DNA of 64,000 nt, from the IMG/VR virus record IMGVR_UViG_3300027986_000008, positions 1 to 64,000 of that record; one strand, 5' to 3'. Made by a program: the position numbers and the translations under genes. Positions within the stretch are counted from its first letter, which is position 1, and every line of letters starts with the position of its first letter. The DNA is from a virus. Lineage: Duplodnaviria > Caudoviricetes. Under the pieces are notes generated by a model that saw nothing but the letters and a program-made list of their open reading frames with translations, was not told the DNA's origin and searched no databases. Of the stretch, positions 9,598-16,485 are shown piece by piece.

Positions 9598-9683
9598 CGG
9601 GCAACTCGCTCGCGAGGAGCCTTCGAAGGCTTTCCAGACGTTGGTTGGGGAGCAGGAGAGTATATTCGGATGATTACCCGACT

Positions 9684-10250
9684 ATGAGCGATTCCGTGAA
9701 GCTTCGCGTTGTTCCGTGCTCGCTTCGAAAAGCGAATGACTTCGTAGAAGTGTTCCATCGCCACAATCTGAGAACGTCTCGCGATGGAGGGAAGTTCGCC
9801 GTAGCTGTAGCGTCCGGCGTCGATGTGGTCGGAGTAGCGATAGTAGGCAATCCGCTTTCTGCCACATTGATGGACGGATTAACTGCGGAAGTCCTCCGAG
9901 CGTGCGTACTGCCGGACGCTCCGCGTAACTGCAACTCGTTGCTTTACGGAGCCTGCCGCCGCGTCTGGTTCGCGATGGGCGGTCGGAAGATTATTACGTA
10001 CACGCTAACCGAGGAGTCCGGCGCGAGCGTTCGCGGAGCCGGTTGGACGCTCGCCGCTGTCGTCAAAGGACACGATACGGCTACGTGGGGTAAGCAGGAT
10101 CATCTCCGGCGTCGCGAGCAAGCGATTCTCGGCCAATCGAAGCGAAGGTGGGAGGCGATCAATTCGACGGCCGTCGAAACTCCGGTATCATGGCCAGAGA
10201 AAGTAGCGGAGATCCAGGAAGGTACGATGTTCTCCGGAGTCGAATTCTGA
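9684..10250 (+). CDS. XF1762-like GNAT-fold protein
   Basis: ANDFV..HRH, VGVAIVG.P, EVLR, NSLLYGAC.R, ITYTL.EESGAS motifs. Confidence 0.75.
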   Translation: MSDSVKLRVVPCSLRKANDFVEVFHRHNLRTSRDGGKFAVAVASGVDVVGVAIVGNPLSATLMDGLTAEVLRACVLPDAPRNCNSLLYGACRRVWFAMGGRKIITYTLTEESGASVRGAGWTLAAVVKGHDTATWGKQDHLRRREQAILGQSKRRWEAINSTAVETPVSWPEKVAEIQEGTMFSGVEF

Positions 10251-10450
10251 TGTCGGTTACGATCGAGCACTCGCTTCGCCGCATGGCCGAGAACTCAGTA
10301 TATGACGATATCGTCTCCGCCGAGAAGGACGCGGCGAATCACGCGCTCTCTTACGTTAGGTTCTATGAGAAGCCGTGCCACCTGACGGTAAATTTGGGCT
10401 TCGGATCTCCGGACCTTCCGGAGGACGAATGGGCCGAATGGAGGATGTAG
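10250..10450 (+). CDS. Hypothetical protein
   Basis: TGATG coupling and GGAG SD. Confidence 0.5.
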   Translation: MSVTIEHSLRRMAENSVYDDIVSAEKDAANHALSYVRFYEKPCHLTVNLGFGSPDLPEDEWAEWRM

Positions 10451-10900
10451 ATGAAGTGCATATCGTTGTGGCAGCCGTGGGCGACTCTCTGGCTCCTCTC
10501 CGATCCGGATGAGAAGGTCTTCGAGACGAGAGGATGGTATACTCCTCACCGCGGTCCTTTGCTCGTACACGCGGCGAAGAAGAGAGACGGAGAGGTCAAG
10601 GAAGCTCTCGCCTCCGGACCGATGGTGACGGCTCTCCTTCAGCACGGCTTTCGCGCCGACGATCAGAAAGGACTCCATCTCTCCTTCGGAGCGATCATCG
10701 GAAGAGTCGATCTGATCGGCTGCTGCAAGATGAGCCGGATGCCTCCTCCGTCTACGAAAGAGGCAATGTTCGGATGCTGGGAGCCGGAGCGATACGCGTG
10801 GGAGAGGGGATCTTATCCGAGGCTATTCTCGAAGCCGATCCCGTACCGCGGAATGCAGACGATCTTCGAGGTGCCGGAGTACTCGGCGGGTTGGGATTAA
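10451..10900 (+). CDS. ASCH domain protein
   Basis: ISLWQPWA, K.FETR.W, RGPLLVHAA, GAIIG.V, PIPYRG motifs. Confidence 0.9.
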   Translation: MKCISLWQPWATLWLLSDPDEKVFETRGWYTPHRGPLLVHAAKKRDGEVKEALASGPMVTALLQHGFRADDQKGLHLSFGAIIGRVDLIGCCKMSRMPPPSTKEAMFGCWEPERYAWERGSYPRLFSKPIPYRGMQTIFEVPEYSAGWD

Positions 10901-10957
10901 AAAAGGGGAATTATATAGATGACTACCGAAAATCTTTTCCCGACCCTCATTTTTCGC

Positions 10958-10986
10958 TTGACAAGCGTGAGGGAGTCAAGTACACT
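10958..10986 (+). promoter_or_regulatory. Outer IS promoter overlapped by an inverted repeat
   Basis: TTGACA-N17-TACACT; CTTGAC...GTCAAG palindrome. Confidence 0.75.
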
Positions 10987-11031
10987 GAAAGAGTAGCAAA
11001 CATCAAGATCCCCTTTGAGAAGGAGAAGCCA

Positions 11032-11256
11032 ATGAAACACAACGGAAGCTGCGATAAAACCTGCGGGCACATGCTCGACATGACGACCGTCCCGTACACC
11101 CAGGCCGTCCAACGCCTTTTGGACCGCGACCCTCGCGTCGTTGAATACCGCGAGATTGACAGCGAATGGCTGGAAGTCGTCTATGCTTGCCACCGTCCCG
11201 TGGCTGCGATCTACCGCGCTAGCGCCGCCCAACTCGGCATCCAGGAGCTTGCGTAA
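11032..11256 (+). CDS. Outer IS cargo gene 1, hypothetical
   Basis: AAGGAG SD, ATG 11032. Confidence 0.7.
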   Translation: MKHNGSCDKTCGHMLDMTTVPYTQAVQRLLDRDPRVVEYREIDSEWLEVVYACHRPVAAIYRASAAQLGIQELA

Positions 11257-11481
11257 ATGACACGCGTACAGTACAGCGTATTCGATTCGCGCGAAGCGGC
11301 CATTGCCGCCGGATGGGCAGACGCCGAATTTGGCGACTGGCAGGAAAGTCTGAATGGGAAAATCCGCAAGGGATGGATAGCCCTGGACTTTCTCACCGTC
11401 GAGCAAGCAAGAGAGGATCACAGAGATTGCAGATCAAGCCGCCCCACGGTCGCCAGCCGCTACTCTGAACGTAAACAGTGA
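11257..11481 (+). CDS. Outer IS cargo gene 2, hypothetical
   Basis: TAAATG junction and AGGAG SD. Confidence 0.6.
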   Translation: MTRVQYSVFDSREAAIAAGWADAEFGDWQESLNGKIRKGWIALDFLTVEQAREDHRDCRSSRPTVASRYSERKQ

Positions 11482-11488
11482 GTCGAAA

Positions 11489-11773
11489 ATGGCTTGGCTG
11501 GAAGTCGTGCTGCCGGGTCACGGTAGTGATTGGGATGCACGTGAAGAGGATCTCCGCATGGAAGTCGAAGAATACCTCGGCACGGAGTACGATGCCGTGC
11601 TGAGGGAGGCGATCCAGGACGCGGATGGAAGGTTTTGGACGAACATCGAAATTCGGATTAGTGAGCCATCTGATCCGCCCGTCGAGCAAGAAATCTGCTG
11701 CATGAGCACATGGGAGCGTGGTTGCCGCTGCGATCAGTGCACGGCCAATCATGACGAAGAGGGGGGTCTCTAG
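11489..11773 (+). CDS. Outer IS cargo gene 3, acidic with Cys/His tail
   Basis: Operon packing. Confidence 0.6.
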   Translation: MAWLEVVLPGHGSDWDAREEDLRMEVEEYLGTEYDAVLREAIQDADGRFWTNIEIRISEPSDPPVEQEICCMSTWERGCRCDQCTANHDEEGGL

Positions 11774-11950
11774 GTGCAAACCATCCACATCACCATCGAA
11801 AGGGGAATTATATAGATGACTTCCATCGCTAGCCCCGCGCCTTTGCTTTCTTTCGCTTGCGTGCGCGAGCCTTCCCCTTTGCCGATTTCCCTTTCGGGTG
11901 GTAGGCCAACACGAGGTCTACCACCTTGTCCAGAATCTTGGGTGCGTCGC

Positions 11951-12868
11951 TCATCGGATGAGCCTCTTGTAGGTGAGCCGCTTTCCGGCACTGGCCACCA
12001 CGAAGCTGTCCAAGCGCTCCATCGTGTGTCGCGCGACGTTCCCCTCGTTGAGGCGAAACGTAAATTCATCGACGTAGCGGAACAGGTGCTTTTTGCTGGC
12101 GTGATGGTAGACGCCATGCAGCCCGCGTTTCAGGACGGCCCAGACACTCTCGATGGAGTTAGTGGAGACCGGACCACGGGCAAACTCTCCGGCGCTGTGG
12201 TTGACCCGCTCGTGACGATAGAACAGGCCGTCCAGGTCGTTGTACGCGCCGTACTCATCGGTGTAGATCGTAGAGCCAATTTCCACCGCGCCGTGGATCT
12301 CGTTTTGGATAGTGTTGATGCCGGTCGCGTCAACCACCATGGCGACGGTACGGCCTCCGCGTTCCCGCATTCCCAGCACGGCGGTTTTGCCGACCGACCC
12401 ACGGCCCGCGTTCAGCTTTTTGCAGGCGTGCTTGTTGCCTTCTTTTCCGCCGATGAAAGTCTCGTCAATCTCGACAATCCCGCGAAGCGTTTCCAGCTTA
12501 CCTCCGCAAGCTTCGCGGAGACGGCCCAGAACGAACCACGCGGACTTTTGCGTGATGCCGATCTCTTTAGCGAGTTGCATCGAGGAAATCCCCTTCCGCG
12601 CCGTCACGAGCAAGTACATAGAGTACAGCCACTTGTGCAGCGGAACGTGGGATCGCTCGAAGATGGTGTTCGTGCGGACGGTGAATATTTCGTTGCACGG
12701 GTTGCACCGGTAGTAGCCTCCGGCGCGGGCGGGAACGCAATCGCCAGCCGCGCAGAAGGGACACTTGACACCAGTCGGCCAGAGCCGCGCTTCGAGGTAA
12801 AGTCTCGCGGATTCGGCATCTGGGAACAACTCGAACAGTTGGAACGTGCTGATGGTGGAGCGAGACAT
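11951..12868 (-). CDS. tnp: IS1595-family DDE transposase
   Basis: Zn ribbon CPFC/CNPC, VEIDETFIGG, IYTDE, TNSIESVW, YVDEFTFR motifs. Confidence 0.95.
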   Translation of the reverse strand: MSRSTISTFQLFELFPDAESARLYLEARLWPTGVKCPFCAAGDCVPARAGGYYRCNPCNEIFTVRTNTIFERSHVPLHKWLYSMYLLVTARKGISSMQLAKEIGITQKSAWFVLGRLREACGGKLETLRGIVEIDETFIGGKEGNKHACKKLNAGRGSVGKTAVLGMRERGGRTVAMVVDATGINTIQNEIHGAVEIGSTIYTDEYGAYNDLDGLFYRHERVNHSAGEFARGPVSTNSIESVWAVLKRGLHGVYHHASKKHLFRYVDEFTFRLNEGNVARHTMERLDSFVVASAGKRLTYKRLIR

Positions 12869-13090
12869 CTATTCGACCTCCGAACGCAGGCGAAGATAGG
12901 GGTCGGAAGCGATGATTTCATCGGAGTCCGTGACGACCACTATGTCGGAATCGGAGAGCGTTCCGTCACAGTCAGCCTCAGGGCACGGAGCATTCAAGTA
13001 GCCCTCGTGAATCGGTTGGCTAGCTCCACACTTCGGGCACACGGCCACACCTTGCGGACAGCCAATCTGCTCTGCTCTTTCGCGTGTCAT
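12869..13090 (-). CDS. Inner IS cargo, Zn-binding hypothetical protein
   Basis: AGGAG SD; CPKC and CPEADC. Confidence 0.65.
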   Translation of the reverse strand: MTRERAEQIGCPQGVAVCPKCGASQPIHEGYLNAPCPEADCDGTLSDSDIVVVTDSDEIIASDPYLRLRSEVE

Positions 13091-13114
13091 GGCTTAGAAG
13101 CTCCTTTTTGCATA

Positions 13115-13366
13115 TTATTCAATCTCCAAGAACGCCGATGCGCGAACGTCGGGGTTCTCCACCGTCTGAATTTCATCTTTCCACACCAAGTCTCCAAAGA
13201 GCGCTTCAGCCTCGCGCTTTGCGCCGACTACGCTCTGACAATTCCGGGTGCTCATGAGCAATGCTGGCGCACCCGGTTGAGCACGAACCTTGACGCGAAA
13301 CCTTGCACCCTCGCGGGAGGAGCGGGATTCCCGCTCCCTTTCGATGGTGATAAAAATGGTCTGCAT
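13115..13366 (-). CDS. Inner IS cargo, paralogue of the split outer gene
   Basis: MQTIFITIERERESRSSREGARFRVKV...; internal palindrome. Confidence 0.85.
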   Translation of the reverse strand: MQTIFITIERERESRSSREGARFRVKVRAQPGAPALLMSTRNCQSVVGAKREAEALFGDLVWKDEIQTVENPDVRASAFLEIE

Positions 13367-13876
13367 TTACTTCGCCACCCGTGGAAGATAGCGGAACCAA
13401 TACCCGTCATCATCCTGCGCGATCCAAGTCACGTCGCCAGTGTCGAACGTGGCAAGAGCGGACTGCGCCATTTCCAGCGTGTCTTCCACATCTTTCCGCT
13501 GGTGGTCAAAGAGTTGATTCCAGGTTTCTGGCGACTCCATGACGCCTTCCATTTCTTCGATGATTTCTTGGAGTTCGAATCGCGTGGCGGGAGAGAACGG
13601 ATTGGAGCATCCGGCGATGAAGGCCATCAACACGCCTTCCTCTACTTCGCCGCCTACTTCCGCAATCCAGGCGCGGAGCTCCAGAGCCTCTTCGTCGCTG
13701 AGGCGATTACGGGTTTCCAGCGACATCGTGACGCGCGTCGTACCGTCCGGCTGGGGTTCGTAGTCGTCGCGCCATTCTCCGATGCACCCAAATTCCTGCA
13801 CGGCGCTGATGAGCGACTTCGGATCGTCGTCTTCCAAGTCGTATTGCGCTTCGGTGATAGACAGTTCAATGTTCAT
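13367..13876 (-). CDS. Inner IS cargo, acidic hypothetical protein
   Basis: AAGGAG SD before ATG 13876; leader resembles that of outer cargo gene 1 (CCCTTTGAGAAGGAGAA). Confidence 0.7.
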   Translation of the reverse strand: MNIELSITEAQYDLEDDDPKSLISAVQEFGCIGEWRDDYEPQPDGTTRVTMSLETRNRLSDEEALELRAWIAEVGGEVEEGVLMAFIAGCSNPFSPATRFELQEIIEEMEGVMESPETWNQLFDHQRKDVEDTLEMAQSALATFDTGDVTWIAQDDDGYWFRYLPRVAK

Positions 13877-13921
13877 GGTGTTTCTCCTTCTCAAAGGGGA
13901 CAAGATGTTTGCTACTCCTCA

Positions 13922-13950
13922 ATAGTAGCGGAGTTTTCCATGGAAGTCAA
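13922..13950 (-). promoter_or_regulatory. Inner IS promoter with -35 inside the terminal IR
   Basis: TTGACT-N17-TACTAT. Confidence 0.7.
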
Positions 13951-14179
13951 GTATATAATTCCCATCGAAAGGGAGCGGGATTCCCGCTCCTCTCGCGACG
14001 GCGCACGCTTCCGGGTGAAGGTCCACGCGCAACCGGGTAGCCCAGCACTCCTCATGAGCACGCGGAATTGTCAGAGCGTCGTCGGCGCGAAGCGCGAAGC
14101 CGAGGCCATCTTTGGCGACCTCGATTGGCGCGACGAAATGGGCGAGATTCGATCCTCTGCGTTTCTGGAGATGGAATAA

Positions 14180-15205
14180 ATGAGTCGATCCACTATCAGC
14201 ACCTTCGAGCTTTTCGACCTCTTCCCCGACGAAGAATCCGCCCGCGTCTATCTCGAAGGGCGACTCTGGCCGAATGGCACGGTCTGCCCGACGTGCCAAG
14301 CGCAGGATCGCATCACTCCCCGCGCCAAGGGGTACTATCGCTGCAACGCCTGCCAGCTTGATTTCACCGTCCGCACTGGGACGATTTTCGAGCGTTCGCA
14401 TGTCCCGCTGCACAAGTGGGTCTATGCCATGTATTTGCTCGTCACGGCCCGCAAAGGCATCTCCAGTTTGCAACTGGCAAAAGAGATCGGGGTCACTCAG
14501 AAAACCGCGTGGTTCGTCCTGGGACGCTTGCGCGAGGCATGTGGTGGCGAGATCGAGAAGTTGCAGGGCACAATCGAAATCGACGAAACCTTCGTCGGCG
14601 GCAAAGAGCGGAACAAGCACGAATCGAAAAAGCTCAAGGCTGGACGAGGGTCTGTCGGTAAGACCGCAGTCTTGGGTATGCGAGAGCGTGGGGGACGGAC
14701 CATAGCCATGGTCGTACCGTCCACGGACCTGGGCACCGTCCAGAACGAAATCCATGGTGCAGTCGAAGTCGGTAGCCAACTCTACACCGATGAGTTCGGA
14801 GCGTACACCGACCTCGATGGATTGTTCTTTCGTCACGAGACGGTCAACCACAGCGCCAAAGAGTTTGTCCGAGGCGCGGCTCATACGAACGGTATTGAGA
14901 GCGTCTGGGCCGTCCTGAAGCGCGGGCTGCATGGCGTCTACCATCACGCCAGCCCGAAGCACCTGCACCGTTACGTCGATGAATTCACCTGGAGGCTGAA
15001 TGACGGGAATGTGAAGCGTCACAGCCTGCGAAGGCTGGATAGCTTCGTGGACGCGACGAAAGGCAAGCATCTCACATACAAGACGGCTCTGCCGATGAAA
15101 CCCGTTCCACCGATCCTCGATAAGATGGCCGATTTGGTGCTGAATTATCGACCAAAAGACAAAGCCAAAACGCCGCGAAAGCGGAAGAAGGCGAAGCGCT
15201 CGTAA
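14180..15205 (+). CDS. tnp: IS1595-family DDE transposase with basic C-terminal extension
   Basis: Same motifs as 11951-12868. Confidence 0.95.
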   Translation: MSRSTISTFELFDLFPDEESARVYLEGRLWPNGTVCPTCQAQDRITPRAKGYYRCNACQLDFTVRTGTIFERSHVPLHKWVYAMYLLVTARKGISSLQLAKEIGVTQKTAWFVLGRLREACGGEIEKLQGTIEIDETFVGGKERNKHESKKLKAGRGSVGKTAVLGMRERGGRTIAMVVPSTDLGTVQNEIHGAVEVGSQLYTDEFGAYTDLDGLFFRHETVNHSAKEFVRGAAHTNGIESVWAVLKRGLHGVYHHASPKHLHRYVDEFTWRLNDGNVKRHSLRRLDSFVDATKGKHLTYKTALPMKPVPPILDKMADLVLNYRPKDKAKTPRKRKKAKRS

Positions 15206-15264
15206 GTGACTGGAAATTATGAGAGTAGGTAGTCATCTATATAATTCCCTAAAAAAGGATCTAA

Positions 15265-16485
15265 ATGGATGAGCGAATTAACGGATTTTCTCTTTGTGCC
15301 GGAGTCGGAGGACTCGATCTCGGAGTCGAGATTGCTTTCCCACGATACCGATGTATCGCAGCCGTCGAAAACAATCCGGAGGCCGCAAAGCGATTCCGTC
15401 TCCGCTTTCCAGAGGCGAAGGTCTTCCGAGATGTCGTGGGATTCGATGGACGACGAATCAACGGTATTGTGGATTGCGTTACTGCGGGCTGGCCGTGCCA
15501 ACCGCATAGCATTGCCGGAAAGCGGCTTGGAACCGCAGACGAGCGATGGATCTGGGGAGATATCGCTAGAATCCTCGGAGAAAGCGGAGCGCCTCTCTTC
15601 TTTGGTGAGAACGTATCGGGACTCCTGCGAGACGCCGACGGCGGTACTGAGGAAGGAGCCGACGGAGAAGTGGACGACGACTCAGACGGATCTATGGGGG
15701 GAATGGGAACCGTTTTGCGGGATTTGGCCGCGATGGGGTTTATCACTGTATGGGGAAGTCTACGAGCTTCCCAAGTGGGAGCCTCGCACGGAAGACCGAG
15801 AGTTTTCGTGTTGGCCTACAAGCCGACGGGAGGATTCCGAATCGACTGGTGCTCATCGAGGATATGCGGATACGCTAACGAGCGCAACGGAAGCGTGGAG
15901 TACGCCGAGAAGTCAATCGGCTCAATCCACCGGGCCGAGCAGAATAAAGAATCGCGAGGATATACAGACTCAAGCGGAGAAGTGGAAATCGGATCTTACG
16001 AAGGCAGATTATTTTTGGGGAACTCCGACCTCGCGAGACTGGAAGGACGGAGCATGCGAGAACTCGGAGGTTCCGGTGAATCGTCTGCTAGGCCGGGAAG
16101 TAGTGAAATGGAAGACTCCTCACGGTCTCTCGTTCCGACCGGAAGCGGGAGATCCAGGTGGAGGAGGGGAATTCGCAGAGCAGGCGACGAATTGGGGATC
16201 TTCGCGCCCGGCCCAAACTCTCCCGATTGGCCTGCAATTCTCGATCATAATTACCTGCTTCGCCCCTCTCTTTCTATATTTGAGCAATGCCTTACCGAGT
16301 CCCTACAACAAACTGGAGTCGATGTTCAAGAGGCGGTTGAATCCGAACTTCGTAGACTGGATGATGGGCTGGCTCGTCGATTGGTCGAGCGAAGGCCGCG
16401 TCTTTCGTGCGGCGGAAATGGAGTCGTACCTCTTCAAGCAGCGGCATGCTTTACTATCCTTGCTCGGAGAATCGGACTAATCTAA
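15265..16485 (+). CDS. C5 DNA cytosine methyltransferase (alpha-like chain)
   Basis: Motif I LCAGVGG, IV GWPCQ, VI ENV, VIII H.RPRVF, X GNGVVP. Confidence 0.9.
   Translation: MDERINGFSLCAGVGGLDLGVEIAFPRYRCIAAVENNPEAAKRFRLRFPEAKVFRDVVGFDGRRINGIVDCVTAGWPCQPHSIAGKRLGTADERWIWGDIARILGESGAPLFFGENVSGLLRDADGGTEEGADGEVDDDSDGSMGGMGTVLRDLAAMGFITVWGSLRASQVGASHGRPRVFVLAYKPTGGFRIDWCSSRICGYANERNGSVEYAEKSIGSIHRAEQNKESRGYTDSSGEVEIGSYEGRLFLGNSDLARLEGRSMRELGGSGESSARPGSSEMEDSSRSLVPTGSGRSRWRRGIRRAGDELGIFAPGPNSPDWPAILDHNYLLRPSLSIFEQCLTESLQQTGVDVQEAVESELRRLDDGLARRLVERRPRLSCGGNGVVPLQAAACFTILARRIGLI
15269..16480 (+). CDS. Fully overlapping +1-frame ORF, putative MTase beta chain
   Basis: 403 open codons; repeated W.TP motifs and motif-IX-like RLNPNFVDWMMGW. 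Confidence 0.65.
   Translation: MSELTDFLFVPESEDSISESRLLSHDTDVSQPSKTIRRPQSDSVSAFQRRRSSEMSWDSMDDESTVLWIALLRAGRANRIALPESGLEPQTSDGSGEISLESSEKAERLSSLVRTYRDSCETPTAVLRKEPTEKWTTTQTDLWGEWEPFCGIWPRWGLSLYGEVYELPKWEPRTEDREFSCWPTSRREDSESTGAHRGYADTLTSATEAWSTPRSQSAQSTGPSRIKNREDIQTQAEKWKSDLTKADYFWGTPTSRDWKDGACENSEVPVNRLLGREVVKWKTPHGLSFRPEAGDPGGGGEFAEQATNWGSSRPAQTLPIGLQFSIIITCFAPLFLYLSNALPSPYNKLESMFKRRLNPNFVDWMMGWLVDWSSEGRVFRAAEMESYLFKQRHALLSLLGESD

What the first reader, a model, noticed from the sequence alone, without database searches (positions are those of the whole stretch)
10898..15257. Nested IS1595: the inner element inserted into the homologue of its own cargo gene, beside a palindrome both share
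Seen: a 2161-bp inner element (TSD ATCGAAAG) lies inverted within an outer element (TSD TAAAAAAG), and the two have near-identical IRs. The target is codons 8-10 of the outer MQTIHITIERER gene. The inner element carries an intact paralogue with the same ATCGAAAG followed by the palindrome GGAGCGGGA(A/T)TCCCGCTCC. Known: IS1595 elements make 8-bp TSDs and can carry passenger genes. Inference: the palindrome may be a transposase or cargo-protein binding site that recruits relatives, as a decoy, competition or homing-like targeting device, rather than this being a chance hit.
Basis: partly seen in the sequence, partly recalled or inferred. Interest (0 to 1): 0.7.

Follow-up and report, generated by a model that had tools for sequence, protein, structure and literature searches.

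The report
Nested cargo-carrying IS1595 transposons in phage
Two related jumping genes of a known kind sit one inside the other in a soil phage genome; the landing spot looks like an ordinary hit on an A/T-rich patch rather than homing, but the palindrome beside it is part of a hairpin that the small passenger gene keeps across its relatives.

Summary
A 2161-bp element (11803-13963) lies inverted inside a 4344-bp element (10906-15249). Each has perfect 8-bp target duplications and near-identical 22-bp ends. The insertion splits codons 8-10 of the outer copy of a small gene that the inner element carries intact.

Both are passenger-carrying ("transporter") IS of the IS1595 family, in a 102-kb phage contig. 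This scan has noted nested elements of this kind in phages on other DNA before.

The homing or decoy reading has little support:
- About 20 other DNA copies and 48 protein clusters of the cargo family show no second insertion at this position.
- 81 independent insertions of the same IS group define a generic A/T-rich target bounded by G/C.
- The outer element itself landed at a site with no palindrome.
- At least five other nestings in this IS group lie near element ends, not in cargo genes.

The palindrome is nevertheless real biology. A roughly 9-bp stem at codons 9-16 is kept far beyond codon constraint, with compensating changes, in IS-free phage copies too. That makes it a feature of the gene, not of the transposon.

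Most likely this is a chance hit that is tolerated because the inner element brings a spare gene copy. Interest is modest.

The parts
10898..10905 (.). Left copy of the outer 8-bp target duplication (TAAAAAAG). It contains the stop codon of the upstream phage gene 10451-10900.
10906..10927 (+). Outer element, inverted repeat at the end far from the transposase gene
   Evidence: I7, 22/22 complementary
10958..10986 (+). Sigma-70-like promoter facing inward, ahead of the outer passenger operon
   Evidence: 10 of 12 matches
11032..11773 (+). Three outer passenger ORFs (11032-11256, 11257-11481, 11489-11773) with no family match
   Evidence: a homologue of the first one is in L256 and in the IS-free phage contig L259
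11774..11802 (+). 5' stump of the outer cargo gene (codons 1-9 plus two bases of codon 10). Its last 8 nt are the left copy of the inner duplication ATCGAAAG.
11803..11824 (+). Inner element, inverted repeat at the transposase end
   Evidence: I5, I8
11829..11954 (-). 41-aa basic ORF. It matches the C-terminal tail that is fused to the outer transposase.
11951..12868 (-). Inner transposase, 305 aa (zinc ribbon plus DDE domain)
   Evidence: PF12762 9.6e-43, PF12760; NF033547
12869..13090 (-). 73-aa cysteine-rich passenger ORF found only in the inner element
13115..13366 (-). Intact inner cargo gene (83 aa). The palindrome is at 13319-13337.
13367..13876 (-). 169-aa acidic passenger ORF of the inner element
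13922..13950 (-). Sigma-70-like promoter of the inner passenger operon. Its -35 box lies inside the inverted repeat.
13942..13963 (-). Inner element, inverted repeat at the far end
   Evidence: I5, I10
13964..13971 (.). Right copy of the inner target duplication (ATCGAAAG)
13972..14179 (+). 3' part of the outer cargo gene, with the palindrome at 13972-13990. An ATG at 13940 inside the inner repeat is in frame and gives a 79-aa hybrid ORF (13940-14179).
   Evidence: P0010
14180..15205 (+). Outer transposase, 341 aa. Its start directly follows the cargo gene's stop codon.
   Evidence: (PF12762 6.5e-47, PF12760)
15228..15249 (-). Outer element, inverted repeat at the transposase end
   Evidence: I7
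15250..15257 (.). Right copy of the outer target duplication, 7 nt before the start of the C5 methylase gene (15265)

Best explanation
Two diverged transporter IS of the IS1595 family lie nested in a phage genome. Their DNA is about 63% identical over aligned ungapped columns, and 60-97% in 40-nt windows across the shared cargo and transposase genes. Each is a single operon: a promoter at one end, then passenger genes, the about 80-aa cargo gene, and the transposase as the last gene.

The transposase has a zinc ribbon and a DDE domain. It makes 8-bp staggered cuts at short A/T-rich octamers of the form N-W-W-n-n-W-W-N bounded by G/C.

The inner element landed on one such octamer. In this allele of the outer cargo gene the octamer exists only because of two synonymous codon choices (GAA AGG where most relatives have GAG CGG).

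The hit was probably not aimed. It persisted because it is harmless. It lies inside another mobile element, and the incoming element brings an intact paralogue of the gene it breaks. The outer ends and the outer transposase stay whole.

The palindrome next to the site belongs to a hairpin that the cargo gene family maintains for its own, still unknown, purpose. That purpose is most likely an mRNA or cis-regulatory element.

Shown: the anatomy, family membership, the target rule, the lack of recurrence, and conservation of the hairpin. Inferred: neutrality or survivorship as the reason the arrangement persisted, and the role of the hairpin.
For: Anatomy and family.

Target rule: 81 non-redundant reconstructed empty sites give more than 93% A/T at duplication positions 2, 3, 6 and 7, with G/C-rich positions just outside.

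Site quality: the inner site ranks in the top 3.4% of contig positions and at the 11th percentile of true sites. The contig holds 3425 sites that score as well or better, 79 of them inside the outer element. The outer element is 2.2% of the contig and holds 2.8% of the target propensity.

Other nestings: at least five occur among 242 loci with these ends (L024, L035, L154, L226, L163). Four of them lie 20-50 bp from an outer end, and L163 carries an extra internal right end.

Octamer and palindrome register: both are present only in the two window copies and L004, out of 20 copies.

No other interrupted copy.

Hairpin kept beyond codon constraint: 9 of 20 copies have perfect arms of 9 bp or more, against 2-4.4% under resampling of synonymous codons. 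The closing pair occurs as G-C x8, C-G x4, A-U, U-A, G-U and U-G, and no shuffle in 500 reached the observed covariation score. The hairpin is present in IS-free copies L003, L008, L012 and L261.
Against: The site is only a mediocre match to the target rule. It directly abuts one of only about 10 strong palindromes in 100 kb. By a naive estimate of mine (not a tool output), the chance of that is about 1 in 1000.

A 36-nt block around the site is 35/36 identical between the two window copies and 36/36 between the inner copy and L004, while the rest of the gene is 74% and 65% identical. A permutation test gives p = 0.0009 for the inner copy against L004 and p = 0.027 for the two window copies. 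Something beyond plain descent therefore shaped this block.

The neutrality argument is an inference. This is a single event and cannot be tested statistically on its own.
Confidence: 0.7

Rival explanations
1. Structure-assisted targeting that is generic and not specific to relatives. A G/C-rich palindrome that can distort or extrude makes the adjoining A/T-rich octamer a better substrate for strand transfer. The hairpin would then have raised the odds of this hit without being a device of any kind.
For: In 82 other sites with 80-nt flanks, 7 of 14 palindromes with arms of 7 bp or more touch the duplication. Three are centred on it and four abut it (L061, L070, L180, L112). My rough binomial estimate from those counts is p about 0.015 for the four that abut. 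The window site scores low on sequence alone.
Against: L061 and L112 read as G/C hairpin plus T-run, that is, terminator-like, and L070 as a hairpin plus an A/T-rich tail. Their A/T tail is simply the preferred target and is a neutral place to land. L180 does not clearly fit that reading. No site among the 81 has arms of 9 bp or more. The numbers are small and the test is post hoc.
Confidence: 0.15
2. The palindrome is a binding site for the transposase or the cargo protein, and it draws related elements in as a form of homing, decoy or competition.
For: The palindrome contains the first six bases of the element's end on each strand (read). The insertion cuts the outer operon between its promoter and its transposase, which would hamper a rival. 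The hairpin is under selection.
Against: There is no recurrence. The hairpin is also kept in IS-free phage copies. Its register and spacer vary (1 nt or 5 nt), which suits a fixed dimer site poorly. The end-like hexamer is not enriched at 81 other sites (2/81 against 3.5% in controls, and both are true nestings). The outer element's own target has no palindrome. Another IS-borne copy (L262) lacks both the motif and the stem.
Confidence: 0.05
3. The shared block is a result of the nesting and not a cause of it. Gene conversion between the two inverted paralogues, or with an L004-like relative, copied the octamer-plus-palindrome block into the inner copy. This can hold together with the best explanation.
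For: The inner copy's nearest relatives over the rest of the gene (L253 84%, L254 79%) have the other register. In the 36-nt block the inner copy matches L004 and the outer copy instead. Sawyer-type tests give p = 0.0009 and p = 0.027. The shared changes include GAA AGG, which lies outside the palindrome, so selection for pairing alone does not explain them. The two copies are 178-nt inverted repeats only 614 nt apart (I3).
Against: The tract is very short. The p-values do not survive correction over all 171 pairs. The block is the most conserved part of the protein. The central base differs between the two window copies.
Confidence: 0.3

Closest known systems
Transporter IS (tIS) of the IS1595 family, ISNwi1-type subgroup
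   Same: A zinc-ribbon plus DDE_Tnp_IS1595 transposase, 8-bp duplications, ends starting with GG, and passenger genes between the inverted repeats. PMC8101967 gives the family definition. The TnCentral preprint (10.1101/2021.05.26.445724) states that tIS are restricted to the IS1595 and IS66 families.
   Different: The passenger set here (the cargo gene and small acidic or cysteine-rich ORFs) matches no described family. Assignment to the ISNwi1 subgroup rests on my memory of the ISfinder end consensus and was not checked.
Palindrome-specific insertion sequences such as IS1397 and ISKpn1 (IS3 family), which insert into REP/PU loops (from my own knowledge)
   Same: A DDE element lying next to a G/C-rich palindrome.
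   Different: Those elements insert in the loop, and do so again and again at many copies of the repeat. Here the insertion is at the foot of the stem, it happened once, and the IS group as a whole follows an A/T-rich rule.
End-targeting by IS30 and IS911, which insert beside sequences resembling their own inverted repeats (from my own knowledge)
   Same: Relatives nest in each other. In this group several nestings lie 20-50 bp from an element end.
   Different: The window event is about 900 bp from the nearest outer end. The end-like part of the palindrome is only a hexamer, and it lies 13 bp from the junction.
Conserved mRNA hairpins inside coding regions, seen as synonymous-site constraint
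   Same: A stem kept through compensating third-base changes. It even dictates the Asp/Glu choice at codons 11 and 13.
   Different: No function, partner or strand is known. Sense and antisense folds are equally stable.

Membership tests
IS1595 family | DDE_Tnp_IS1595 catalytic domain | tested here: met
   PF12762 at 9.6e-43 and 6.5e-47, nearly full profile length (2-153 and 1-153 of 153). NF033547 at 191 and 206 bits against a cut-off of 75.
IS1595 family | N-terminal zinc-ribbon domain (absent only in the IS1016 group) | tested here: met
   PF12760 above its cut-off in both proteins.
IS1595 family | 8-bp target duplications and terminal inverted repeats starting with GG | tested here: met
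   87 related element pairs also have perfect 8-bp duplications.
Transporter IS (tIS) | IS-like structure with passenger genes between the inverted repeats and a single transposase gene | tested here: met
   33 of 88 duplication-flanked relatives are 1550 bp or longer and carry extra ORFs.
ISNwi1 subgroup | ISfinder end consensus and placement in the transposase tree | not testable with these tools
   ISfinder is not available. The ends fit the consensus as I remember it. This is a lead only.
Site-specific or homing-type insertion | Repeated insertion at the same position of the same target gene in independent genomes | tested here: not met
   None of about 20 other DNA copies and none of 48 protein clusters shows a break at codons 8-10. 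Power is low, since only 3 alleles carry the octamer.
Palindrome-loop-specific IS (IS1397-like) | Insertion within the loop of a repeated palindrome, as a family-wide habit | tested here: not met
   The insertion is at the foot of the stem. Of 81 sites, 0 have arms of 9 bp or more, and 5 have arms of 7 bp or more against 2.6% in controls.
Own-end targeting (IS30 / IS911-like) | The target carries a sequence resembling the element's inverted repeat, directly at the junction | tested here: not met
   Only a hexamer matches, 13 bp away from the junction. There is no enrichment at other sites.

The most novel reading that the evidence does not exclude
The hairpin kept at codons 9-16 of the cargo gene would be a functional nucleic-acid element that also serves as a landing pad. 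Related transporter IS would then preferentially nest at its foot and cut a rival's promoter off from its transposase. This would be a form of competition between transposons inside phage genomes.
Probability: 0.07. Interest if true: 0.6.

Novelty: new member of a known kind. Interest (0 to 1): 0.3.

Why it matters
The analysis shows that a striking coincidence (a transposon sitting in the homologue of its own passenger gene) needs no special mechanism once three things are measured: the element group's target rule, its habit of nesting, and the harmlessness of the hit.

Two by-products may be useful:
- A target-site rule for a very widespread group of IS1595-type elements that ferry genes through phage and bacterial genomes. 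Six of the ten largest passenger ORFs I scanned in relatives are DNA methyltransferases.
- A small phage gene family whose coding sequence hides a hairpin strong enough to dictate amino-acid choice. This can be tested directly with synonymous mutants.

Tried and rejected
Searches that led nowhere:
- Function of the cargo protein. There was no Pfam, PHROG or NCBIfam hit. The AlphaFold model is confident (pLDDT 90.4), but Foldseek against the PDB gave nothing at E of 0.001 or better. The wide structural search peaked at Z 5.2, which is noise level. The protein atlas returned only viral hypothetical proteins.
- Megablast of the whole region against phage records gave no match.
- An exact search for the palindrome allele in IMG/VR gave none.
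- The scan of genome contigs for the cargo gene gave none.
- An empty-site search through relatives of the upstream phage gene failed because the neighbourhoods differ.
- Sense against antisense stability of the hairpin showed no strand preference, so RNA and DNA roles cannot be told apart.

A reading I held and then dropped:
- My first pass scored the palindrome only in the window's register and concluded that it was not conserved. RNA folds of the relatives showed a shifted register, and I reversed that conclusion.

Explanations considered and rejected:
- An alternative parse of the four ends into two side-by-side elements. Only the nested parse gives matching duplications and restores the gene.
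- The 23-nt identical run as proof of conversion. A longer 33-nt identical run lies in the transposase gene.
Full report
OBSERVATION.
- The outer element spans 10906-15249, with 22-nt ends that are 22/22 complementary and an 8-bp duplication at 10898-10905 and 15250-15257.
- The inner element spans 11803-13963 (2161 bp), is inverted, and is flanked by a second perfect 8-bp duplication at 11795-11802 and 13964-13971.
- Removing the inner element and one duplication copy rejoins an open 78-codon gene (11774-11802 plus 13972-14179). This gene is homologous to the intact 83-codon gene at 13115-13366(-) of the inner element.
- The 19-nt palindrome follows the duplication directly in the outer gene (13972-13990) and sits at the same codons of the inner gene (13319-13337).
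- The assembly is a single 102,276-bp contig holding only these two elements and these two palindrome copies. Earlier notes of this scan call it an uncultured soil phage. I did not retest that, but the neighbouring genes match phage families.

WHAT THE ELEMENTS ARE.
- Both transposases carry the IS1595 zinc ribbon and the full DDE_Tnp_IS1595 domain and match NCBI's IS1595 model. With 8-bp duplications and GG-initial ends they meet the family definition in PMC8101967.
- Because passenger genes lie between the ends, they are transporter IS, a class reported only for the IS1595 and IS66 families (bioRxiv 10.1101/2021.05.26.445724).
- Each element has one sigma-70-like promoter, at the end far from the transposase and facing inward (10958-10986 on the plus strand; 13950-13922 on the minus strand). 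After it come the passenger ORFs, the cargo gene and the transposase, mostly with zero-spacer junctions.
- The two elements share only the leader, the cargo gene and the transposase. Overall identity over aligned ungapped columns is 63%, with 60-97% in 40-nt windows across those shared genes. The other passengers differ.

THE IS GROUP AND ITS TARGET RULE.
- Among these loci, 87 pairs of ends have perfect 8-bp duplications. Sizes run from 110 bp (transposase-less miniatures) to 3.7 kb.
- 81 non-redundant reconstructed empty sites give a clear, symmetric rule. Duplication positions 2, 3, 6 and 7 are more than 93% A/T, the middle positions about 75% A/T, and the bases just outside are G/C-rich.
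- Scored with this matrix, the inner element's site is ordinary to mediocre. It is in the top 3.4% of contig positions and at the 11th percentile of genuine sites, with 3425 sites that score as well or better in the contig and 79 inside the outer element.
- The outer element is 2.2% of the contig and holds 2.8% of the predicted target propensity.
- Nesting recurs in this group. L024, L035, L154, L226 and L163 also carry one element inside another. In the first four the insertion lies 20-50 bp from an outer end, which is where the matrix also scores highest; L163 carries an extra internal right end.
- This scan has also noted nested cargo-carrying IS1595 elements in phages on other DNA (I did not check these notes).

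THE CARGO GENE FAMILY.
- The family is small: 31 clusters at 90% identity and 48 at 50% identity, all from metagenomes or viral contigs.
- The gene sits directly upstream of an IS1595 transposase in L001, L002, L004, L251, L255, L256/L257 and L262/L263. Two of these are complete elements with their own duplications.
- In L003, L005-L012, L253, L254 and L258-L261 no transposase or element end is in reach. L259 carries a terminase gene and L261 carries resolvase and nuclease genes.
- In L259 the gene sits next to a homologue of the outer element's first passenger. I infer that the passenger block was taken up from phage DNA.
- None of these copies, and no protein in either search, is broken at codons 8-10. 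The only aberrant N-terminus of that kind is the window's own hybrid ORF.
- The protein folds with confidence (pLDDT 90.4) into a small sheet-plus-helix domain that has no convincing structural or sequence relative. The palindrome encodes its least confident loop.

THE PALINDROME.
- In the window's register (a 1-nt centre) only the two window copies and L004 are perfect, and only these three have the A/T-rich octamer (GAA AGG where others have GAG CGG).
- Folding the relatives showed that most keep a stem with the same core in another register. The left arm comes from codons 9-11 instead of 11-13, there is a 5-nt loop, and the right arm is the same.
- Nine of 20 copies have perfect arms of 9 bp or more, and three more have 7-8 bp. 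Resampling synonymous codons for the same peptides gives arms of 9 bp or more in only 2-4.4% of trials.
- Counting pairs on the alignment gives compensating changes at all three third-base pairs. The closing pair occurs as G-C (8), C-G (4), A-U, U-A, G-U and U-G. At the protein level this is a swap of Glu/Asp between codons 11 and 13. No shuffle in 500 reached the observed covariation score.
- The stem is therefore selected at the nucleotide level, and it is present in IS-free phage copies. It is a property of the gene, not of the transposon.
- Sense and antisense folds are equally stable, so an RNA role and a DNA role cannot be told apart. The change of spacer argues against a rigid dimer binding site.

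THE SHARED BLOCK.
- Over most of the gene the inner copy's nearest relatives are L253 and L254. In the 36 nt around the insertion point it is 36/36 identical to L004 and 35/36 identical to the outer copy.
- Permutation of polymorphic sites gives p = 0.0009 and p = 0.027 for these two comparisons.
- The shared states include GAA AGG, which lies outside the palindrome. Selection for pairing alone therefore does not explain the block.
- A short recombination or conversion tract between co-resident relatives is the simplest reading. The two copies are inverted repeats only 614 nt apart. If so, sharing the palindrome may be partly a result of the nesting.

PALINDROMES AT OTHER INSERTION SITES.
- Within 48-nt reconstructed sites, palindromes with arms of 7 bp or more occur in 5 of 81 sites against 2.6% of controls. 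None has arms of 9 bp or more.
- With 80-nt flanks, 7 of 14 such palindromes touch the duplication. Three are centred on it, as the symmetric target rule predicts, and four abut it.
- L061 and L112 read as a G/C hairpin followed by a T-run, and L070 as a hairpin followed by an A/T-rich tail. They look like terminators, whose A/T tail is both the preferred octamer and a harmless place to land. L180 does not clearly fit that reading. The window site has the same architecture on its bottom strand.
- A real structural preference cannot be ruled out, but the numbers are small.
- The first six bases of the element end occur inside the palindrome. That hexamer is not enriched at other sites.

SYNTHESIS.
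- The most likely course of events is as follows. The outer element inserted between two phage DNA-modification genes without damaging either one. Its duplication holds the upstream gene's stop codon and lies 7 nt ahead of the methylase gene's start.
- A second, diverged relative from the same host pool later hit an A/T-rich octamer in the outer cargo gene.
- The event survived because it disrupts only another mobile element. The incoming copy replaces the broken gene, and the 4.3-kb composite keeps intact outer ends and an intact outer transposase.
- A side effect, which I infer, is that the outer transposase is now separated from its promoter by 2.1 kb of antisense DNA.
- I give this reading 0.7, generic structure-assisted targeting 0.15, and a dedicated recruiting, homing or decoy site 0.05.

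NOVELTY. The elements are new members of a known kind. The nesting is ordinary for this group. The conserved coding-region hairpin in the cargo family and the target rule derived here are modest new observations.

Noticed in passing
L251:267-300 and L252:240-260: Two independent truncated cargo copies break at the same place, between codons 29 and 30. L251 joins a malate-synthase-like N-terminus to cargo residues 30-83 plus a transposase and a right end. L252 joins cargo residues 1-29 to unrelated DNA that I read as the end of a TonB-dependent receptor gene. This could be a recombination hot spot or an assembly chimera.
   Followed up: partly
L070, L212, L088, L082, L019, L162 (elements with duplications): Six of the ten largest passenger ORFs in relatives of this IS group are DNA methyltransferases (N6, N4/N6 and C5 types). 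L082 may carry a whole restriction-modification set. Earlier notes of this scan report the same theme on other DNA.
   Followed up: partly
L013-L250: The 19-nt end sequence is conserved exactly in more than 238 loci from many bacterial phyla and viral contigs. 38 of 88 duplication-flanked elements are under 1 kb and have no transposase (miniature derivatives as small as 110 bp).
   Followed up: partly
window 13940-14179 (+): The inner element's end supplies an in-frame ATG, so the broken outer gene reads as a 79-aa hybrid in which seven N-terminal residues are replaced by eight coded by the inverted repeat. Gene callers list it (P0010). Whether it is made is unknown.
   Followed up: no
window 11829-11954 (-); L251:1376-1500; L256:2225-2350: A 41-aa, very basic ORF overlaps the transposase stop (ATGA) in the inner element, in L251 and in L256. 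The same sequence is fused as the C-terminal tail of the outer transposase (residues about 305-341) and of the L002 transposase. It may be a detachable DNA-binding or localisation tail.
   Followed up: no
window 15265-16485 (+): The C5 cytosine methylase gene next to the outer element has two overlapping 1.2-kb ORFs in different frames. The Pfam match covers only the N-terminal half (profile positions 3-163 of 324). The other frame holds what I read as methylase-like C-terminal motifs, so a frameshift or a sequencing error is possible. Pfam did not confirm the second frame.
   Followed up: partly
L259:4794-5252 and L260:500-958: In an IS-free phage contig with a terminase gene, a homologue of the outer element's first passenger lies directly upstream of the cargo gene. 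This suggests that the transposon's passenger block was captured from phage DNA.
   Followed up: no
L253:574-1228: Two cargo paralogues (37% identical) lie about 190 bp apart, with a small ORF between them, on a short contig with no IS in reach.
   Followed up: no
window 9645-10900: The outer element sits in a cluster of DNA-modification genes: a Mom-like gene (phrog_1384), a gene matching phrog_3193, then the C5 methylase.
   Followed up: no
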